A DNA stretch of 44,679 nt, taken from Escherichia phage vB_EcoS_UALMA_PCEc3. The notes under the pieces are model-generated. The model worked only from the letters and a program-made list of their open reading frames with translations, did not search any database and had not been told where the DNA came from. The translations under genes were made by a program, and so were the position numbers. Of the stretch, positions 11,903 to 16,605 are shown in pieces; positions within the stretch are counted from its first letter, which is position 1, and each line of letters begins with the position of its first letter. The stretch is from sequence record PQ314493, one strand, 5' to 3'.

Positions 11903-12559
11903 ATGGCTCATTTATCAAACGGCACCCAGGTGTTTGTAGAAGGCTCTCGCGGAACTGCAATTGACGTAACTGCAATTTCCAACGCAGCTACCCCTGTTTT
12001 AACTGTATCTGACGCATCCGGCGTGGCTGAGGGTGATTACCTGCTTTTCACCTCCTCAGCCTCTACGCTTCTGGCTGACAAGCAAGTTCGCGTAACCGCA
12101 GTCTCTGGCACCTCGGTAACTGTTGAGGGTATTGATACCTCAAGCACTACCAAATTCCCTGCTGGTTTAACTGGTGAGGTTGTCAAGATTACTTCATGGT
12201 TCGAAGTTCCGTGCGTTCAGGACGTATCTACTGACGGCGGCGAGCAGCAGTTCGTTAACTTCCAGTGTCTTTCTGATGACCGTGAACAGCAGATTCCGAC
12301 TTATAAATCTGCCGTAACAAACACCTTTACCTTTGCTCACGAGTACACCAACCCGGTTTATCCGGTTCTGCGTAACTACGATGAGTCTGGCCAGGTTGTT
12401 GCGATTCGCCTGTTCGTACCTCGCGCTCAGGAAATGCGCTTGCAGTCAGGCACTATCGCTTTCAACGACACTCCTACCATTGGTGTTAACGAAATCGAAA
12501 CGGTATCCATCGCAGTATCCATTCGTGGTCGACTGTCCTCTGTGGCAGCTGAAGTTTAA
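11903..12559 (+). CDS. major tail protein (putative)
   Basis: 218 aa, RBS aaaggaaaaa, strong terminator downstream; position before chaperones and tape measure. Confidence 0.55.
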   Translation: MAHLSNGTQVFVEGSRGTAIDVTAISNAATPVLTVSDASGVAEGDYLLFTSSASTLLADKQVRVTAVSGTSVTVEGIDTSSTTKFPAGLTGEVVKITSWFEVPCVQDVSTDGGEQQFVNFQCLSDDREQQIPTYKSAVTNTFTFAHEYTNPVYPVLRNYDESGQVVAIRLFVPRAQEMRLQSGTIAFNDTPTIGVNEIETVSIAVSIRGRLSSVAAEV

Positions 12560-12565
12560 AATACA

Positions 12566-12588
12566 AACCCTCTTCGGAGGGTTTTTTA
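12566..12588 (+). terminator. rho-independent terminator
   Basis: hairpin ccctcttcggaggg + T-run. Confidence 0.65.
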
Positions 12589-12590
12589 TT

Positions 12591-12613
12591 GCATAGCATT
12601 TTTTGCTAAAGAT
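12591..12613 (+). promoter_or_regulatory. degenerate box copy; -10 TATAGT ~12631-12636
   Basis: gcatagcattttttgctaaag. Confidence 0.45.
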
Positions 12614-12669
12614 ATTATTAAACTTTGCTGTATAGTTATCTCATCGAAACGAAATGAGAGACTAAAGAA

Positions 12670-12918
12670 ATGAATAACGCTAAAAACATCATCAAGCTTG
12701 CTGCGGTTCTGGTTGCTTTTTATGCAGTAGTTCAGATTGTCAACCCAACTGGTGAGGCTGATGCCAATAGCAAGGCAAACAAATATACTGTTGAATTTGC
12801 TAAGGCTGAGCGAGAATGTCAGGAGCTTGTAGGTGGCAAAGTTGACCAAATCATGAAATACGGCAAAGAGGTTTGTAAGGACTCGGCTGCTAAGATTGCA
12901 AAAGAAAACACTAAGTAA
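12670..12918 (+). CDS. small secreted Cys-containing protein (moron-like)
   Basis: N-terminal signal-peptide-like segment (MNNAKNIIKLAAVLVAFYAVVQIV, then ADA); own degenerate box cassette; inserted in tail module. Confidence 0.45.
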   Translation: MNNAKNIIKLAAVLVAFYAVVQIVNPTGEADANSKANKYTVEFAKAERECQELVGGKVDQIMKYGKEVCKDSAAKIAKENTK

Positions 12919-12956
12919 TAGAATACATACTCACAAACAATAAGAGGATTAACAAA

Positions 12957-13271
12957 ATGGCAAAGTTCAAACTTTCACTGGCAGCACTCCCAGACTTTAA
13001 GCTACCAGTAAAATTTAAGCTGGCTAACGACCAGGATGTAGAGGTTATCTTTACAGTCAAGCATAAGAAAACATCTGAGTTGCAGGAGCTGCTTAGCAAG
13101 GAAGACTTGAGCACAAAAGAGCTTATTATGGCAATTGCTTCTGATTGGGATCTGGAAGAAGAATACAACGAAGATAACGTTAATGAGTTCTCAGACCTTT
13201 TCCCGGCCTCAACTGTTGCACTGACAACTGCTTACATGCAAGCGCTTGCTGGTCAGCGAGTAAAAAACTAA
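12957..13271 (+). CDS. tail assembly chaperone (gpG-like)
   Basis: 104 aa between major tail protein and tape measure; ends with slippery A_AAA_AAC. Confidence 0.6.
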   Translation: MAKFKLSLAALPDFKLPVKFKLANDQDVEVIFTVKHKKTSELQELLSKEDLSTKELIMAIASDWDLEEEYNEDNVNEFSDLFPASTVALTTAYMQALAGQRVKN

Positions 13272-13591
13272 AACGAGCGGTGTATCTACAGTACCAGTCA
13301 GAGCCAACTGATGCAGAACTGGAAGCTATTGGGATGCGCCGCTCTGATTACGAAGATGAAGAGCCTGAGGTTTTACACTTCGACGACAACATGATGAAAG
13401 CGTGGGACATTTATTGTTCAATGGCTACGCAGTGGAGAGTCGGAGCTAATGGAGCAACAGGACTTGATTACAACGTGCTAAATTTCCTCTTTAGAGTGTA
13501 TAATGTTTCTGAAGAAGAATTGGTGCTCAGCGATTTACGCATCCTTGAAGCTAAGGCTCTAGAGATGATGGATAACCTGAGAAAAAAATAA
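12957..13591 (+). CDS. tail assembly chaperone G-T fusion via -1 programmed frameshift (predicted)
   Basis: slippery heptamer AAAAAAC at 13262-13268; -1 frame is open from slip site through track ORF 13280..13591. Confidence 0.5.
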
Positions 13592-13626
13592 CCCGCTTCG
13601 GCGGGTTTTCTATTATGGAGGCTTAG

Positions 13627-16605
13627 ATGGCAACAAATGAATTAGCCGGAATCACACTAGCCGTAGACGTATCTCAGGTAGACAGGGGTACGCAATCCCT
13701 ACAGAAGTTCAGACAGGCCAACCAGCAAGCCGCTTCCGGTATTAGTGAGTTCGTCAATGCTGAGCAGGTTGCGAAAAACCAGGCTAGAGATACCGCTCAC
13801 GCACTTGCTGAGCAACAAGCATCTTTAGCTAAATTGCAAACTGCTATTGATCCAACTGCGGCAAAGTTCCGTAAGCTGCAAGAGGCGGCTGTAGGACTTG
13901 ATAAGGCATTTGCTGCTGGCGTAGTTCCTGATGAGGAGTTTTTCCGCTTAGGCGAGGCTCTTGAAACGCAGAATGCAAAGCTCGCCCGTTCACGTGCGGC
14001 GCTAACTGAAGAGGGTAGGGCGGCAGCTCAATCCGCAAAGGATAAGGCAAAGGCAAAGGCTGAATCTGATAGATTCATTGCTTCACTTGAGCGACAGGCT
14101 CAAGCGGCAACATTGACGCGTGAGGAGTACTTAAAGTTACAGGCTGCTCAGCTTGGTGTAAGCTCTCAGGCAGCACCTATTATTGACAGAATCGCAGAGG
14201 CTTCAGAGAGGGCTAATGTTCAATTAGCAAACCAAAGTAAGGCGTTTCTGAGATCAGGATTAAGTGCCGGTCAATACAGGAATGCTATCAGGATGCTTCC
14301 GGCACAGATAACTGATATTACCACGTCATTAGCTAGCGGCATGCCTGTTTGGCTTATTGCAATCCAGCAGGGTGGGCAGATTAAGGATAGCTTTGGCGGT
14401 ATTGGCAACACATTTAGATTCGCGCTTGCAGCCTTAAATCCATTCAATGTTGCTGTTGGTGTTTTGGGTGGGGCGCTTGTAGCTCTTGGTGTTGGTGCGG
14501 CTCAGGCTGAAAGTGAATTCAGGGCGTTAAACTCCGCAATTGCGTTCTCCAACAACTCTACAATAGCATCAATCTCGCAGGTTAGAGAGTTGGTTAGTTC
14601 TGTTTCTGATGCAACAGGAGCCACCAGGGGACTTGTGACTAGCATCGCAACGAGCCTTGTTGAGCAAGGAAACCTTACGCTGACGCAGATTGACAAGATT
14701 ACTAAATCGACCGCAAGATGGGCACAGCTGACAGGTAAGGATGCGAAGGAGATTACTGGTTACTATAACCAGATTGCAAGCGACCCAATACAGGGATTGG
14801 TTGATTTGGATAAGCGCTTTAACTTCCTCACGCAGGGGCAGTTGACGACAATCGAAAACCTGAGAAAGACAAAGGGAGAGGTTGAGGCCGTAACTGCTGC
14901 TATTGATATATTTAGCAAATCACAGGAAGCGAACCTTAACGATATTGCGGCCCAACTTACTCCTCTTGAATTGGCGTGGAATGACTTCAGGAAGTACATA
15001 TCTGATGTATGGGATGCAATTAGTCGCAGAACGGTTGGGGCGCTAAACCTGTTTGTTGATGTAATAGCTGGAACAATTGAACAGATTAAGGTCTTCATTA
15101 ATCAAGGTGACGTGCTGATCGGTGAGTTTGTAATTAGTGCGACACAAGCGCTGCAAAACATCCCTGGCCTTGGTGATACTGGGAATAATGTAATCTCTGA
15201 GCAGCAGAAGATTATCGATGCAGCCAAGAAGCAAAACCTTGAGTTAGAAAAGTCTATCAGAGAGCGAGATGCCAGAATCAGAGAAGGAGAGCTTGGTTAC
15301 GTTACTCGCAGGGAAAATCAGAATACGAATGAGCAATCGGGTACTGATGAGGAATTTGCGAAAAGGAGGAAGGCACTTAAGGACGAGCTTGACGCGATCA
15401 AGAAGAACAGGAAAGAGGAGAATGGGAGGGTTAAGGAGCAAAGGGATTTAACAATAGGTTATGAATCTGGCGTTTTAGCACTTCAGGCTCAACTCAAAGT
15501 TCTTCAGGAAAATAGGGATATTGGCGCAGTAATAAGCAACGAGCGAAAGCAGTACCTTCAGGAGGAAGCCAAATTCAGGATTCTTGAGCAGAGGCAACTT
15601 GATGGATCAATAACCAAAGAGCAGGCAAGGCTTCTAATTGAAAAGGATAAAGTTCTTGAGTTGGCAAGGCAGAAGGCTGAGCTAGGTGATCAGATTGTCT
15701 TGCAGGAGCGCGCCAATAAGTTAGCTGAAGATAACCGTAAGAAGATTCTTCAGATTAACAATGAGGCAAGCAATATTAATTTGGGTGCTGGCCTGTCTTC
15801 TCGGGAACAGCAGAGAGCCAAAGAGATTCAGGCTCTTCAGTCCAATCAGGTTAATGCTGGTGGTTCTGTTGATGATGTTGATTTCCAGCAATTACTGGAA
15901 GCAAGAAAGGAATATTACAAGCAGGAGGATAATCTTAGATCAGACTGGCAATCCGGTGTAACATCCACTCTCGCCGACTTGACAGAGAAGTACACTGACT
16001 ACAACCAGATTGCTAAGGACTTAACCGTTGCGGCATTCGATGGAATTACAGAACAGATTACAAACCTTGTAACCACTGGTGAGACTAATTTCAGAGATTT
16101 CACAGCAAGCATCCTCAAAATGATTGCGAAGATTGCAACTCAGTTACTTTTGGTTAAGGCTATAGAATCAACATTAACTAGTTTTGGCGGTGGGGGAGGT
16201 AATGCGTTTGGCTCTTTTGCATCTGCTATAGGCTTTGCTGGTGGCGGCTATACTGGTGATGGTGGGAAGTATCAGCCAGCAGGAACGGTGCACCGCGGTG
16301 AGTTTGTATTCACAAAAGAAGCGACAAGCAGAATTGGCGTGAAAAACCTTTACGCGCTGATGAAGGGTTATGCGAATGGCGGCGCTGTTGGTGGTCCTTC
16401 CGGTTATGCGAATGGTGGTTTGGTTTCTGGTGGAACTGATGTTAATGTTAGCGGCATCACTGTTAACGTAAACTCAGGTGTAGGTAGCGACCCAGAGCAA
16501 GCTAAGGCATTGCAGAACGGCGTTAAAGCTATCGTAGCGGAAGAGATTGCTCAATCATTCCAGCAAGGCGGAAAAGCTTACCAGTACCTGCGAGGATTCA
16601 ACTAA
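13627..16605 (+). CDS. tape measure protein
   Basis: 992 aa, coiled-coil-rich with Gly-rich C-terminal region; position after chaperones. Confidence 0.8.
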   Translation: MATNELAGITLAVDVSQVDRGTQSLQKFRQANQQAASGISEFVNAEQVAKNQARDTAHALAEQQASLAKLQTAIDPTAAKFRKLQEAAVGLDKAFAAGVVPDEEFFRLGEALETQNAKLARSRAALTEEGRAAAQSAKDKAKAKAESDRFIASLERQAQAATLTREEYLKLQAAQLGVSSQAAPIIDRIAEASERANVQLANQSKAFLRSGLSAGQYRNAIRMLPAQITDITTSLASGMPVWLIAIQQGGQIKDSFGGIGNTFRFALAALNPFNVAVGVLGGALVALGVGAAQAESEFRALNSAIAFSNNSTIASISQVRELVSSVSDATGATRGLVTSIATSLVEQGNLTLTQIDKITKSTARWAQLTGKDAKEITGYYNQIASDPIQGLVDLDKRFNFLTQGQLTTIENLRKTKGEVEAVTAAIDIFSKSQEANLNDIAAQLTPLELAWNDFRKYISDVWDAISRRTVGALNLFVDVIAGTIEQIKVFINQGDVLIGEFVISATQALQNIPGLGDTGNNVISEQQKIIDAAKKQNLELEKSIRERDARIREGELGYVTRRENQNTNEQSGTDEEFAKRRKALKDELDAIKKNRKEENGRVKEQRDLTIGYESGVLALQAQLKVLQENRDIGAVISNERKQYLQEEAKFRILEQRQLDGSITKEQARLLIEKDKVLELARQKAELGDQIVLQERANKLAEDNRKKILQINNEASNINLGAGLSSREQQRAKEIQALQSNQVNAGGSVDDVDFQQLLEARKEYYKQEDNLRSDWQSGVTSTLADLTEKYTDYNQIAKDLTVAAFDGITEQITNLVTTGETNFRDFTASILKMIAKIATQLLLVKAIESTLTSFGGGGGNAFGSFASAIGFAGGGYTGDGGKYQPAGTVHRGEFVFTKEATSRIGVKNLYALMKGYANGGAVGGPSGYANGGLVSGGTDVNVSGITVNVNSGVGSDPEQAKALQNGVKAIVAEEIAQSFQQGGKAYQYLRGFN

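What the first reader, a model, noticed from the sequence alone, without database searches (positions are those of the whole stretch)
13262..13268. Predicted -1 programmed ribosomal frameshift in the tail assembly chaperone pair
ORF 12957..13271 ends ...GQRVKN-stop. The slippery heptamer A_AAA_AAC (13262-13268) lies just before the stop, and the -1 frame is open from there through ORF 13280..13591, immediately upstream of the tape measure gene. This matches the conserved gpG/gpGT arrangement of siphophages.
Basis: partly seen in the sequence, partly recalled or inferred. Interest (0 to 1): 0.45.

Follow-up and report, generated by a model that had tools for sequence, protein, structure and literature searches.

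The report
Tail chaperone -1 frameshift site
This is the well-known ribosomal frameshift that tailed phages use to make a short and a long version of their tail-assembly chaperone; it is real and strongly conserved here, but ordinary, and simply missing from this genome's database annotation.

Summary
ORF 12957..13271 ends GTA AAA AAC TAA, so A_AAA_AAC sits at 13262-13268 directly before the stop. The -1 frame is open from 13187 to 13588, and the tape measure gene starts at 13627. A slip gives a 211-aa, 24.3-kDa G-T fusion.

The window is Pseudomonas phage PsgS01F (PP134917). It is a T1/Rtp-like siphophage, 91-97% identical to coliphages. Comparative evidence supports a real -1 frameshift:
- The heptamer plus stop is kept at the same place in lineages down to about 28% protein identity, T1 included.
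- In 14 close relatives the synonymous-substitution pattern switches from frame 0 to frame -1 between 13259 and 13273.
- The -1-frame peptide LKRAVYL... is conserved from the first codon after the slip. The first possible start codon in that frame wanders from codon 3 to codon 75.

A stable hairpin is predicted at 13275-13344, six bases after the heptamer. This likely stimulator is inferred, not shown.

The frameshift is already annotated in close relatives (OzMSK, Tls) and described for T1-like phages. Only this record's annotation lacks it. Interest is low.

The parts
12957..13271 (+). G-type tail assembly (tape measure) chaperone ORF. Zero frame, 104 aa, 11.8 kDa. This is the product of normal termination.
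   Evidence: ORF list. Pfam Phage_TAC_4, E = 6.1e-33, full length. Substitutions among relatives fall on frame-0 third positions, 44 of 57 in 12957-13186 and 20 of 24 in the overlap. Mass.
13262..13268 (+). Slippery heptamer A_AAA_AAC, covering the last two sense codons of G plus the preceding A.
   Evidence: Register checked. NNA AAA AAC plus stop is kept in PsgS01F, OzMSK, Rtp-like, Tls, T1, LHE71, slyngel, swan01, K50, slur05, Smarc2, Silvanus and VarioGold. Meanwhile the residue before it changes (V/A/E) and the Arg codon before that varies freely as CGN. In slur05 a TGA in the -1 frame lies immediately before the heptamer, so the shift can only happen on it.
13269..13271 (+). Zero-frame stop TAA directly 3' of the heptamer. 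After the shift it is read as part of CUA-AAA (Leu-Lys).
   Evidence: A stop directly abuts the last sense codon of G at this position in all 19 lineages tabulated.
13268..13591 (+). -1 frame extension (T part): 107 codons plus stop, LKRAVYLQYQSEPTDAELEAIGMRR...
   Evidence: Pfam DUF1799, E = 4.9e-16. phrog_17368 positions 113-210. The peptide is conserved from its first codon in 19 lineages, while the first NTG in this frame ranges from codon 3 to codon 75. The Arg codon at 13274-13276 is CGA or AGG among close relatives; both encode Arg in the -1 frame, and the site is upstream of any start codon.
12957..13591 (+). Predicted G-T fusion made by the -1 shift (join 12957..13268, 13268..13591): 211 aa, 24.3 kDa.
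   Evidence: The fused query matched 1144 phage records by tblastn. In 1039 of them one place covers at least 80% of the query, and it is built from two pieces in the rows listed.
13275..13344 (+). Predicted RNA stem-loop, a 23-bp irregular stem plus two apical pairs, with a 6-nt spacer after the heptamer. Candidate frameshift stimulator. It also buries both candidate internal starts (GTG 13280 and ATG 13334).
   Evidence: MFE is -32 kcal/mol, z = -4.5, with 0 of 200 dinucleotide shuffles as stable (-4.2). Only 1 of 1000 synonymous recodings of the same peptide is as stable. The fold is identical in 9 close relatives folded. Third-codon positions in the arms are variable at 1 of 15, against 32 of 82 in the rest of T (p = 0.011) and 66 of 101 in G. 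Pair list. No compensatory changes are available, so this part is inferred.
11903..12559 (+). Major tail (tube) protein gene, the upstream context.
   Evidence: Pfam Phage_tail_3, E = 1.3e-68.
13627..16605 (+). Tape measure protein gene, the downstream context.
   Evidence: Pfam TMP_2, E = 2.3e-51, and Tape_meas_lam_C, E = 7e-17.

Best explanation
The site is a programmed -1 ribosomal frameshift in the tail assembly (tape measure) chaperone gene of a T1/Rtp-like siphophage.

Most ribosomes translating 12957..13271 terminate at TAA 13269 and release the 104-aa chaperone G. A minority slip back one base on A_AAA_AAC (13262-13268). They then read CUA AAA CGA GCG ... and continue to 13588. This gives a 211-aa G-T protein with a DUF1799 domain appended to the chaperone.

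By analogy with lambda G/GT, many copies of G and a few of G-T coat the tape measure protein. The T part recruits the tail tube protein, and neither chaperone ends up in the virion. The fixed low slip rate sets the G:G-T ratio.

A stable hairpin at 13275-13344, six bases past the heptamer, probably pauses the ribosome and raises the slip rate in this clade. The abutting stop codon may contribute.

Shown from sequence: the geometry, the protein families, conservation of the site, the frame switch in the substitution pattern, and the absence of a conserved start for T. Inferred: that the fusion is actually made, its ratio to G, the role of the hairpin, and whether both tRNAs slip (junction ...VKN-LKR...) or only the P-site Lys-tRNA slips (...VKK-LKR...).
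For: - Geometry is exact.
- Families and gene order fit: tube gene, Phage_TAC_4, DUF1799, tape measure gene. One PHROG profile covers both ORFs.
- In 29 of the 30 relatives' loci scanned, the T frame is -1 relative to G and open across the G stop. The exception has a one-base shorter A run.
- NNA AAA AAC plus stop is conserved down to about 28% identity, while flanking codons and even the preceding amino acid vary.
- In slur05 the -1 frame opens exactly at the heptamer.
- Among close relatives, variable sites follow frame-0 third positions up to 13259 and -1-frame third positions from 13273 on. This includes a CGA/AGG Arg swap just after the G stop.
- The T peptide is conserved from the first post-slip codon, and no start codon is conserved.
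- The orthologous join is annotated in OzMSK, Tls, Smarc2 and Silvanus.
- The literature describes a conserved frameshift in T1-like tape measure chaperones (PMC4319613) and the lambda paradigm with a 30:1 ratio (PMC5009743).
- Hairpin support.
Against: - There is no experimental evidence for this phage. I found none for any T1-like phage in the searchable literature.
- A_AAA_AAC is reported to be much less shift-prone than A_AAA_AAG in E. coli (PMC5009743). That still fits the low rate needed.
- Rogunavirus (GCA AAG GTC TAA) and Webervirus (GCA AAA GTY TAA) relatives lack a full heptamer. A tandem two-tRNA slip therefore cannot be the universal mechanism in the family.
- The hairpin is clade-specific. 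IMM-001, AN_ECEAS and Rogunavirus show no significant structure.
- RNAalifold finds no common structure across lineages.
- Covariation for the local GGCGG/CCGCC hairpin of other lineages is weak: 66% of cells paired against 62% shuffled, with 24 of 500 shuffles reaching it.
- The T region as a whole has low synonymous variability, so the suppression test against T alone is only p = 0.011.
Confidence: 0.88

Rival explanations
1. T is a separate gene translated from its own start, as the GenBank record of this phage annotates it (ATG 13334) or as the ORF finder calls it (GTG 13280). It might be reached by reinitiation after termination at TAA 13269. On this reading the heptamer is incidental.
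For: The deposited record has two separate CDS, 12957..13271 and 13334..13591. Many relatives are annotated the same way. GTG 13280 lies 9 nt after the stop and follows GAG (GAGGG in OzMSK). The OzMSK annotators note an 'independent RBS'. GGAAG lies 8 nt before ATG 13334.
Against: GTG 13280 is GTT, GTC or GTA in other lineages. The first NTG in the T frame ranges from codon 3 to codon 75 (codon 68 in slur05, 56 in Smarc2), and annotated T starts differ from record to record. The 22 codons between the slip site and ATG 13334 are conserved as protein and evolve at -1-frame third positions. The frame relation is always -1 with no intervening stop. Both candidate starts are base-paired in the predicted hairpin. 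Independent initiation as a minor extra route in this clade is not excluded.
Confidence: 0.06
2. The fusion arises by transcriptional slippage. RNA polymerase adds an extra A in the A6 run (13262-13267), and normal translation of the edited mRNA gives ...VKK-LKRAV....
For: There is a run of six A, and inserting one A puts T in frame. Homopolymer length at this site does differ in one deposited relative, 2725-N35 with A5.
Against: To my knowledge productive bacterial transcriptional slippage needs runs of about 8-9 or more, and A6 is short. This was not tested here. Relatives keep the same G/T arrangement with runs of only A3-A4 (Rogunavirus CAAAGG, Webervirus CAAAAG), and PS-1 has G_GGA_AAC. 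What is conserved is the exact heptamer register, including the C and the frame, not the run length. A hairpin 6 nt downstream fits a ribosomal stimulator.
Confidence: 0.04
3. This is the same -1 ribosomal frameshift, but by single-tRNA (P-site) slippage of tRNA-Lys on A_AAA with the A site not yet filled, rather than tandem slippage of Lys and Asn tRNAs. The junction would read ...VKK-LKR....
For: The only element common to all lineages is a Lys codon preceded by A (A_AAA or A_AAG) one codon before the last sense codon. Rogunavirus and Webervirus have no re-pairing option for the A-site tRNA. A_AAG shiftiness of E. coli tRNA-Lys is established (PMC5009743).
Against: Most lineages keep the full heptamer including AAC, never AAT and never a non-Asn codon, across deep divergence. 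This suggests the second codon matters where it is present.
Confidence: 0.3
4. There is no recoding. The heptamer is a chance run of A, and the downstream ORF is untranslated or decaying.
For: Any X_XXY_YYZ in a 28-codon overlap has roughly a 0.12 chance expectation (hand calculation). No experiment exists.
Against: T shows purifying selection, with 30 of 37 variable sites at third positions. It has a Pfam domain hit and is conserved in over 1000 phage records. The site itself is conserved at the nucleotide level.
Confidence: 0.02

Closest known systems
Tape measure chaperone pair of T1-like phages (Drexlerviridae): T1 gp40/gp39, Tls TfmA/TfmS, OzMSK CPTvBecoSOzMSK_030/031
   Same: These are orthologous genes. 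They have the same gene order, the same A_AAA_AAC plus stop at the end of G, and the same -1 extension starting LKRAVYL. The join is annotated in Tls and OzMSK. The frameshift is described as conserved in T1-like phages (PMC4319613).
   Different: T1/Tls-type lineages have a short local hairpin, GGCGGUU...AACCGCC, starting 8 nt after the heptamer. The PsgS01F/Rtp/Veterinaerplatzvirus clade has lost that 3' arm (KPP became SEP/SDP). It is instead predicted to pair the same 5' arm with GCGCCGCUC about 55 nt downstream. The records of T1 (RefSeq) and PsgS01F do not annotate the join.
Bacteriophage lambda G / G-T (Levin, Hendrix & Casjens 1993; Xu, Hendrix & Duda 2004, 2013, 2014)
   Same: Two ORFs lie between the tube gene and the tape measure gene. 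The second is reached by a -1 slip near the end of the first, giving a short abundant product and a rare long one. Neither is in the virion (lambda facts from PMC5009743).
   Different: Lambda's slippery site is G_GGA_AAG and is not adjacent to the stop. The proteins here hit Phage_TAC_4 and DUF1799, and no other chaperone or T family was listed at E <= 0.1. The relation to lambda G and T is therefore one of arrangement and presumed function, not demonstrated sequence homology.
vB_EcoS_Rogue1 gp30/gp31 (Rogunavirus; Kropinski et al. 2012, PMC3496638)
   Same: Homologous chaperone pair (58% and 75% identity for the AHP42/C119 representatives) with the same -1 geometry. The authors proposed a G-T-type fusion and a downstream pseudoknot.
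   Different: This group has no X_XXY_YYZ heptamer (GCA AAG GTC TAA), only A_AAG. I found no significant downstream fold in the 90 nt after its stop (z about +0.5).
E. coli dnaX -1 frameshift (A_AAA_AAG, upstream Shine-Dalgarno-like element, downstream hairpin)
   Same: A bacterial -1 slip on an A-rich Lys heptamer, with a stem-loop about 6 nt downstream.
   Different: The last base is C, not G. A_AAA_AAC is reported as much less shift-prone in E. coli (PMC5009743). An upstream SD-like stimulator was not established here. In dnaX the shifted frame terminates almost at once, whereas here it adds a 107-residue domain.

Membership tests
gpG/gpGT-type frameshifted tail assembly chaperone (Xu, Hendrix & Duda 2004 arrangement) | A pair of ORFs located between the major tail (tube) gene and the tape measure gene | tested here: met
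   The order is tube 11903..12559, an 82-aa ORF, G 12957..13271, T to 13591, then tape measure 13627..16605.
gpG/gpGT-type frameshifted tail assembly chaperone (Xu, Hendrix & Duda 2004 arrangement) | The second ORF is in another frame and open back across the stop of the first, so a shift gives a fusion | tested here: met
   The -1 frame is open 13187-13588, an 85-nt overlap. 29 of 30 relatives' loci scanned show the same -1 relation; the exception has a one-base shorter A run.
gpG/gpGT-type frameshifted tail assembly chaperone (Xu, Hendrix & Duda 2004 arrangement) | A slippery sequence in the overlap, conserved among relatives | tested here: met
   A_AAA_AAC at 13262-13268 is conserved down to about 28% identity. 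PS-1 has G_GGA_AAC. Two clades have only A_AAR.
gpG/gpGT-type frameshifted tail assembly chaperone (Xu, Hendrix & Duda 2004 arrangement) | The second ORF lacks its own conserved start, and its coding constraint begins at the shift site | tested here: met
   The first NTG lies at codon 3 to 75 across lineages, and the peptide is conserved from codon 1. The substitution pattern switches frame between 13259 and 13273.
gpG/gpGT-type frameshifted tail assembly chaperone (Xu, Hendrix & Duda 2004 arrangement) | Both products are made in a fixed ratio, and the fusion protein is detectable | not testable with these tools
   This needs a western blot, mass spectrometry or a reporter assay.
gpG/gpGT-type frameshifted tail assembly chaperone (Xu, Hendrix & Duda 2004 arrangement) | The G part binds the tape measure protein, the T part binds the tube protein, and both are absent from virions | not testable with these tools
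   Inferred only by analogy with lambda (PMC5009743).
Pfam Phage_TAC_4 (PF08748) | Score above the curated gathering cut-off over the full domain | tested here: met
   114.1 bits against a cut-off of 21.1. Residues 1-104 match profile positions 1-124 of 124.
Pfam DUF1799 (PF08809) | Score above the curated gathering cut-off | tested here: met
   59.2 bits against a cut-off of 26. Residues 17-97 of the 13280 ORF match profile positions 1-80 of 80.
Lambda's own G and T sequence families (from memory: Pfam Phage_TAC_2 and Phage_tail_T) | A significant profile match | tested here: not met
   The Pfam scan at E <= 0.1 listed no other chaperone or T family for either ORF. The family names are recalled, not checked. 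No profile-profile comparison was run.
Canonical -1 PRF cassette (heptamer + spacer + 3' structure) | X_XXY_YYZ in the zero-frame register | tested here: met
   A_AAA_AAC, with the codons AAA and AAC in frame 0.
Canonical -1 PRF cassette (heptamer + spacer + 3' structure) | A stable RNA structure starting about 5-9 nt downstream and maintained by selection | tested here: inconclusive
   A hairpin is predicted at 13275-13344 with a 6-nt spacer. It is significant against shuffles and against synonymous recodings, and its arms are nearly invariant. There are no compensatory changes within the clade, there is no common structure across lineages, and covariation elsewhere is weak.
Transcriptional slippage site | A long homopolymer run that is conserved as a run | tested here: not met
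   The run here is only A6. Relatives keep the arrangement with A3-A4 runs or with G_GGA_AAC. The length threshold of about 8-9 is from my own knowledge.

The most novel reading that the evidence does not exclude
The frameshift stimulator may have been rewired in this clade. The 5' arm (GAGCGGUG..., overlapping the conserved Ala-Val codons) is kept. The local 3' partner used by T1/Tls-type phages (AACCGCC, the Pro-Pro codons) was lost, and a new long-range partner about 55 nt downstream (GCGCCGCUC, the Met-Arg-Arg-Ser codons) took over. Meanwhile the heptamer stays glued to the stop codon across very deep divergence. This would suggest that competition between termination and slippage, tuned by an exchangeable hairpin, sets the G:G-T ratio.
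Probability: 0.35. Interest if true: 0.35.

Novelty: already known. Interest (0 to 1): 0.15.

Why it matters
The main value is for annotation. The deposited record of this phage (and the T1 RefSeq record) lists two separate small CDS, names them 'tail length tape measure protein', and gives T an arbitrary internal start. The correct product is a 211-aa joined CDS. For phage biology it is one more instance of a very widespread mechanism.

The only mildly new points are these:
- Conservation of A_AAA_AAC plus stop from coliphages to Stenotrophomonas and Variovorax phages.
- Two subfamilies that manage with only A_AAR.
- A clade-specific, well-supported predicted hairpin that could serve as a natural series for studying how stimulators evolve.

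Tried and rejected
- **Wider survey.** The search for related loci with a 13-lineage fusion alignment failed because no stretch was conserved enough. The survey therefore rests on about 30 loci rather than hundreds.
- **Common structure.** RNAalifold on 12 lineages gave no common structure.
- **Covariation.** Pair counting for the local hairpin across 17 lineages was only marginally above shuffles. I do not claim a family-wide conserved structure.
- **Databases.** Rfam had nothing above threshold; the two weak hits fall on the terminator hairpin downstream of T. NCBIfam gave no hit for the fusion. No PDB chain matched by sequence.
- **Literature.** No paper mentions PsgS01F. The paper from the same group on Psg phages covers two other phages.
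- **Second heptamer.** U_UUC_CCG at 13199-13205 was considered and rejected. It is not conserved, and the overlap evolves as frame 0 only.
- **Upstream SD-like stimulator.** I looked at this by eye only. Nothing was convincing, and I did not test it.
- **My own error.** The flanking 104 and 103 residues were exact, so the hit list is unaffected.

Full report
**What the window is.** Megablast of 12600-13700 finds a 100% match to Pseudomonas phage PsgS01F (PP134917.1, 44,679 bp, reverse complement). It also finds about 80 records at 91-97% identity, nearly all Escherichia phages of Drexlerviridae/Braunvirinae: Veterinaerplatzvirus T145P1, BEK1-1, CEB_EC3a, DTL and an Rtp-sized genome. The region is a lambda/T1-like tail module:
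- tail tube protein 11903..12559 (Phage_tail_3, E = 1e-68)
- an 82-aa ORF of unknown function, 12670..12918
- ORF 12957..13271 (Phage_TAC_4, E = 6e-33)
- ORF 13280..13591 (DUF1799, E = 5e-16)
- tape measure protein 13627..16605 (TMP_2, Tape_meas_lam_C)
- a lambda-M-like minor tail protein

**Check of the observation.** The zero-frame codons at the end of the first ORF are GTA AAA AAC TAA (13260-13271). A_AAA_AAC therefore lies at 13262-13268 in the correct X_XXY_YYZ register and abuts the stop. The second ORF is in the -1 frame. That frame is open from 13187 to the TAA at 13589, an 85-nt window in which a -1 shift would be productive. A slip on the heptamer gives ...GQRVKN-LKRAVYLQYQSEPTD..., 211 aa and 24.3 kDa, against 104 aa and 11.8 kDa for G alone. 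AAAAAAC occurs three times on this strand. By my hand calculation from the composition, about 0.004 in-frame copies are expected in the overlap, and about 0.12 for any heptamer of this form. Its significance has to come from comparison with relatives.

**Comparative evidence that the shift is real.**

1. *Frame relation.* In 29 of 30 relatives' loci, spanning 28-100% protein identity, the T homologue is in the -1 frame of the G homologue and open across the G stop. These include T1, Tls, Rtp-like, Rogunavirus, Webervirus, Dhillonvirus slur05, Serratia Smarc2, Stenotrophomonas Silvanus, Variovorax VarioGold and Pseudomonas PS-1. The one exception, 2725-N35, has A5 instead of A6. This is most simply a homopolymer miscall.

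2. *The site itself.* The motif NNA AAA AAC followed directly by a stop is present in 13 of the 19 lineages tabulated, and in T1 itself. The constraint is on nucleotides, not amino acids. The residue before Lys is Val, Ala or Glu (GTA/GCA/GAA), always ending in A. The Arg codon one step further upstream uses all four CGN codons.

3. *Pinning the site.* In slur05 a TGA in the -1 frame lies immediately before the heptamer. The productive window there is only 10 nt, which pins the shift to the heptamer.

4. *Substitution pattern.* I compared 10, then 14, close relatives (10-62 differences over the 635 nt). Variable sites in G and in the overlap fall on frame-0 third positions, 44 of 57 and 20 of 24. 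Read in the -1 frame, the overlap changes would hit first positions. From 13273 onward, variable sites fall on -1-frame third positions, 5 of 6 in the stretch up to 13333 and 30 of 37 beyond it. The last frame-0-type site is 13259 and the first -1-type site is 13273, so the switch brackets the heptamer. Codon 13274-13276 is CGA in some relatives and AGG in others. Both encode Arg in the -1 frame, only two codons after the slip and upstream of any start.

5. *No conserved start for T.* The -1-frame peptide is conserved from its first codon: L-K/R/I-R/E/A-A-V/A-Y... The first ATG/GTG/TTG in that frame lies anywhere from codon 3 to codon 75. GTG 13280 is GTT, GTC or GTA in most lineages. Database annotators have accordingly placed the T start at many different positions or omitted the gene.

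6. *Fusion-type entries elsewhere.* A PHROG profile of 213 positions covers G and T as one protein. The fused query finds 1144 phage records by tblastn. In 1039 of them one place covers at least 80% of the query, built from two pieces in the rows listed.

**Mechanism.** The best-supported reading is a -1 ribosomal frameshift on A_AAA_AAC. A review reports that in E. coli A_AAA_AAC is much less shift-prone than A_AAA_AAG (PMC5009743). This suits a system that needs only a few per cent of the long product; the lambda G:GT ratio is about 30:1 in the same source.

Two subfamilies lack the full heptamer: Rogunavirus has GCA AAG GTC TAA and Webervirus has GCA AAA GTY TAA. Only the Lys-tRNA can re-pair there. 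A P-site-only slip on A_AAR may therefore be the ancestral or general mechanism. I cannot decide whether the junction here is ...VKN-L... or ...VKK-L....

Transcriptional slippage is unlikely. The run is only A6. Relatives with A3-A4 runs, or with G_GGA_AAC (PS-1), keep the arrangement. What is conserved is the exact register, not the run length.

**Downstream hairpin.** Folding 13269-13360 gives a long irregular hairpin at 13275-13344. It has 23 stem pairs plus two apical pairs, a free energy of -32 kcal/mol and a 6-nt spacer after the heptamer.
- The z-score is -4.5, and none of 200 dinucleotide shuffles fold as well (-4.2).
- Only 1 of 1000 synonymous recodings of the same peptide is as stable.
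- The same fold is predicted in all nine close relatives folded.
- Within its span, the variable sites among 14 sequences are 13276 (A-U to G-U, still paired), 13288 (the bulge), and 13303, 13309 and 13315 in the apical region. Of these, 13303 sits in a minor two-pair helix.
- Third-codon positions in the arms vary at 1 of 15. The figures elsewhere are 32 of 82 in the rest of T (Fisher p = 0.011) and 66 of 101 in G (p = 2e-5).
- Both candidate internal starts, GTG 13280 and ATG 13334, are base-paired in it.

Other lineages (T1, Tls, Tlsvirus GS166, K50, slyngel, swan01, Webervirus, slur05, Smarc2, Silvanus) instead show a short local hairpin starting 7-8 nt after the heptamer. Its 5' arm is GGCGG(U/C) and its 3' arm is CCGCC, about 20 nt later. 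Formal support for a family-wide structure is weak. RNAalifold gives none. Pair counting gives 66% of cells paired against 62% in shuffles, with 24 of 500 shuffles reaching the observed value. IMM-001, AN_ECEAS and the Rogunavirus group show no significant fold. I therefore treat the hairpin as a probable, clade-specific stimulator that is inferred and not shown.

**Comparison with what is known.** This is the arrangement described by Levin et al. 1993 and Xu, Hendrix and Duda 2004 for lambda and many tailed phages (as summarised in PMC5009743). [quoted passage not shown] It was proposed for Rogue1 (PMC3496638). The orthologous join is annotated in Tls (tfmA/tfmS), OzMSK, Smarc2 and Silvanus. 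Software exists to predict such sites (PRFect, PMC10885494).

The proteins are not in lambda's own G and T sequence families, because no such hit appeared. Membership holds for the arrangement and for Phage_TAC_4 and DUF1799, not for the lambda gene families. The fusion product matched no NCBIfam model and no solved structure by sequence. Rfam has no family for the RNA element.

**Verdict.** The feature is ordinary and already known for this phage group. The only gap is that the PsgS01F record (and the T1 RefSeq record) annotates two separate CDS instead of a joined one. No experiment backs the fusion in this phage. Interest is low (0.15). The modest extra is the clade-specific hairpin, together with the deep conservation of a heptamer that abuts the stop codon.

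Noticed in passing
L003 (MN840485.1, phage 2725-N35) 2160-2215; equivalent to window 13262-13267: This 99%-identical relative has A5 instead of A6 in the slippery run. Its annotated chaperone therefore runs on in the +1 frame to 118 aa, and T lies at +1 rather than -1. This is most likely a homopolymer sequencing error at the frameshift site.
   Followed up: partly
whole window (PP134917.1): The record names Pseudomonas syringae pv. garcae as host. Yet the tail-chaperone region checked (12600-13700) is 91-97% identical to E. coli Drexlerviridae (Veterinaerplatzvirus / Rtp-like), and the related records are about the same size. The same laboratory has reported other 'polyvalent' Psg phages that are Tequatrovirus and Phapecoctavirus coliphage relatives (PMC10815195). 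The host assignment deserves scrutiny.
   Followed up: partly
window 12957-13591 and 13627-16605 as annotated in PP134917.1: G, T and the true tape measure protein are all labelled 'tail length tape measure protein' in the record, and likewise in many RefSeq relatives. The PHROG families for G and T (phrog_569, 680, 17368) carry that name, so the mislabel propagates through automatic annotation.
   Followed up: partly
window 12565-12584 and 13590-13607: Two terminator-like GC hairpins followed by T runs lie in this region (5 such sites found against 0.8 expected in shuffles). One follows the tube gene. The other sits between the T stop and the tape measure start. The equivalent sites are annotated as rho-independent terminators in T1, AHP42 and CEB_EC3a. 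This suggests attenuation points around the chaperone genes.
   Followed up: partly
window 12670-12918: An 82-aa ORF with a hydrophobic N-terminal segment (IIKLAAVLVAFYAVVQIV) lies between the tube and chaperone genes. It matches phrog_22925 (unknown function) and has no Pfam hit. T1 has no annotated gene at this position. It is preceded by the terminator-like hairpin, so it may be a moron-type insertion.
   Followed up: no
window 13199-13205: A second in-frame heptamer, U_UUC_CCG, lies inside the G/T overlap. It is present only here, in the window's own record and in DTL (L006), and it is lost in the other close relatives. It is judged to be chance.
   Followed up: yes
L018, L033, L013-L017 (Rogunavirus group) and L024, L025 (Webervirus), at the end of the G homologue: These subfamilies keep the -1 G/T arrangement but have GCA AAG GTC TAA or GCA AAA GTY TAA. 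There is no X_XXY_YYZ heptamer, only A_AAR. This implies a single-tRNA slip, or a different and weaker site, in those phages.
   Followed up: partly
L039 (MZ501080.1, phage JeanPiccard), end of the T frame: The T reading frame ends four codons early (...EMMKT*EKK*) compared with the other 13 close relatives. This is a natural C-terminal truncation or a sequence error.
   Followed up: no
window 13582-13588: A run of seven A lies at the very end of the T frame (AGA AAA AAA TAA), immediately before the terminator-like hairpin. No role is evident.
   Followed up: no
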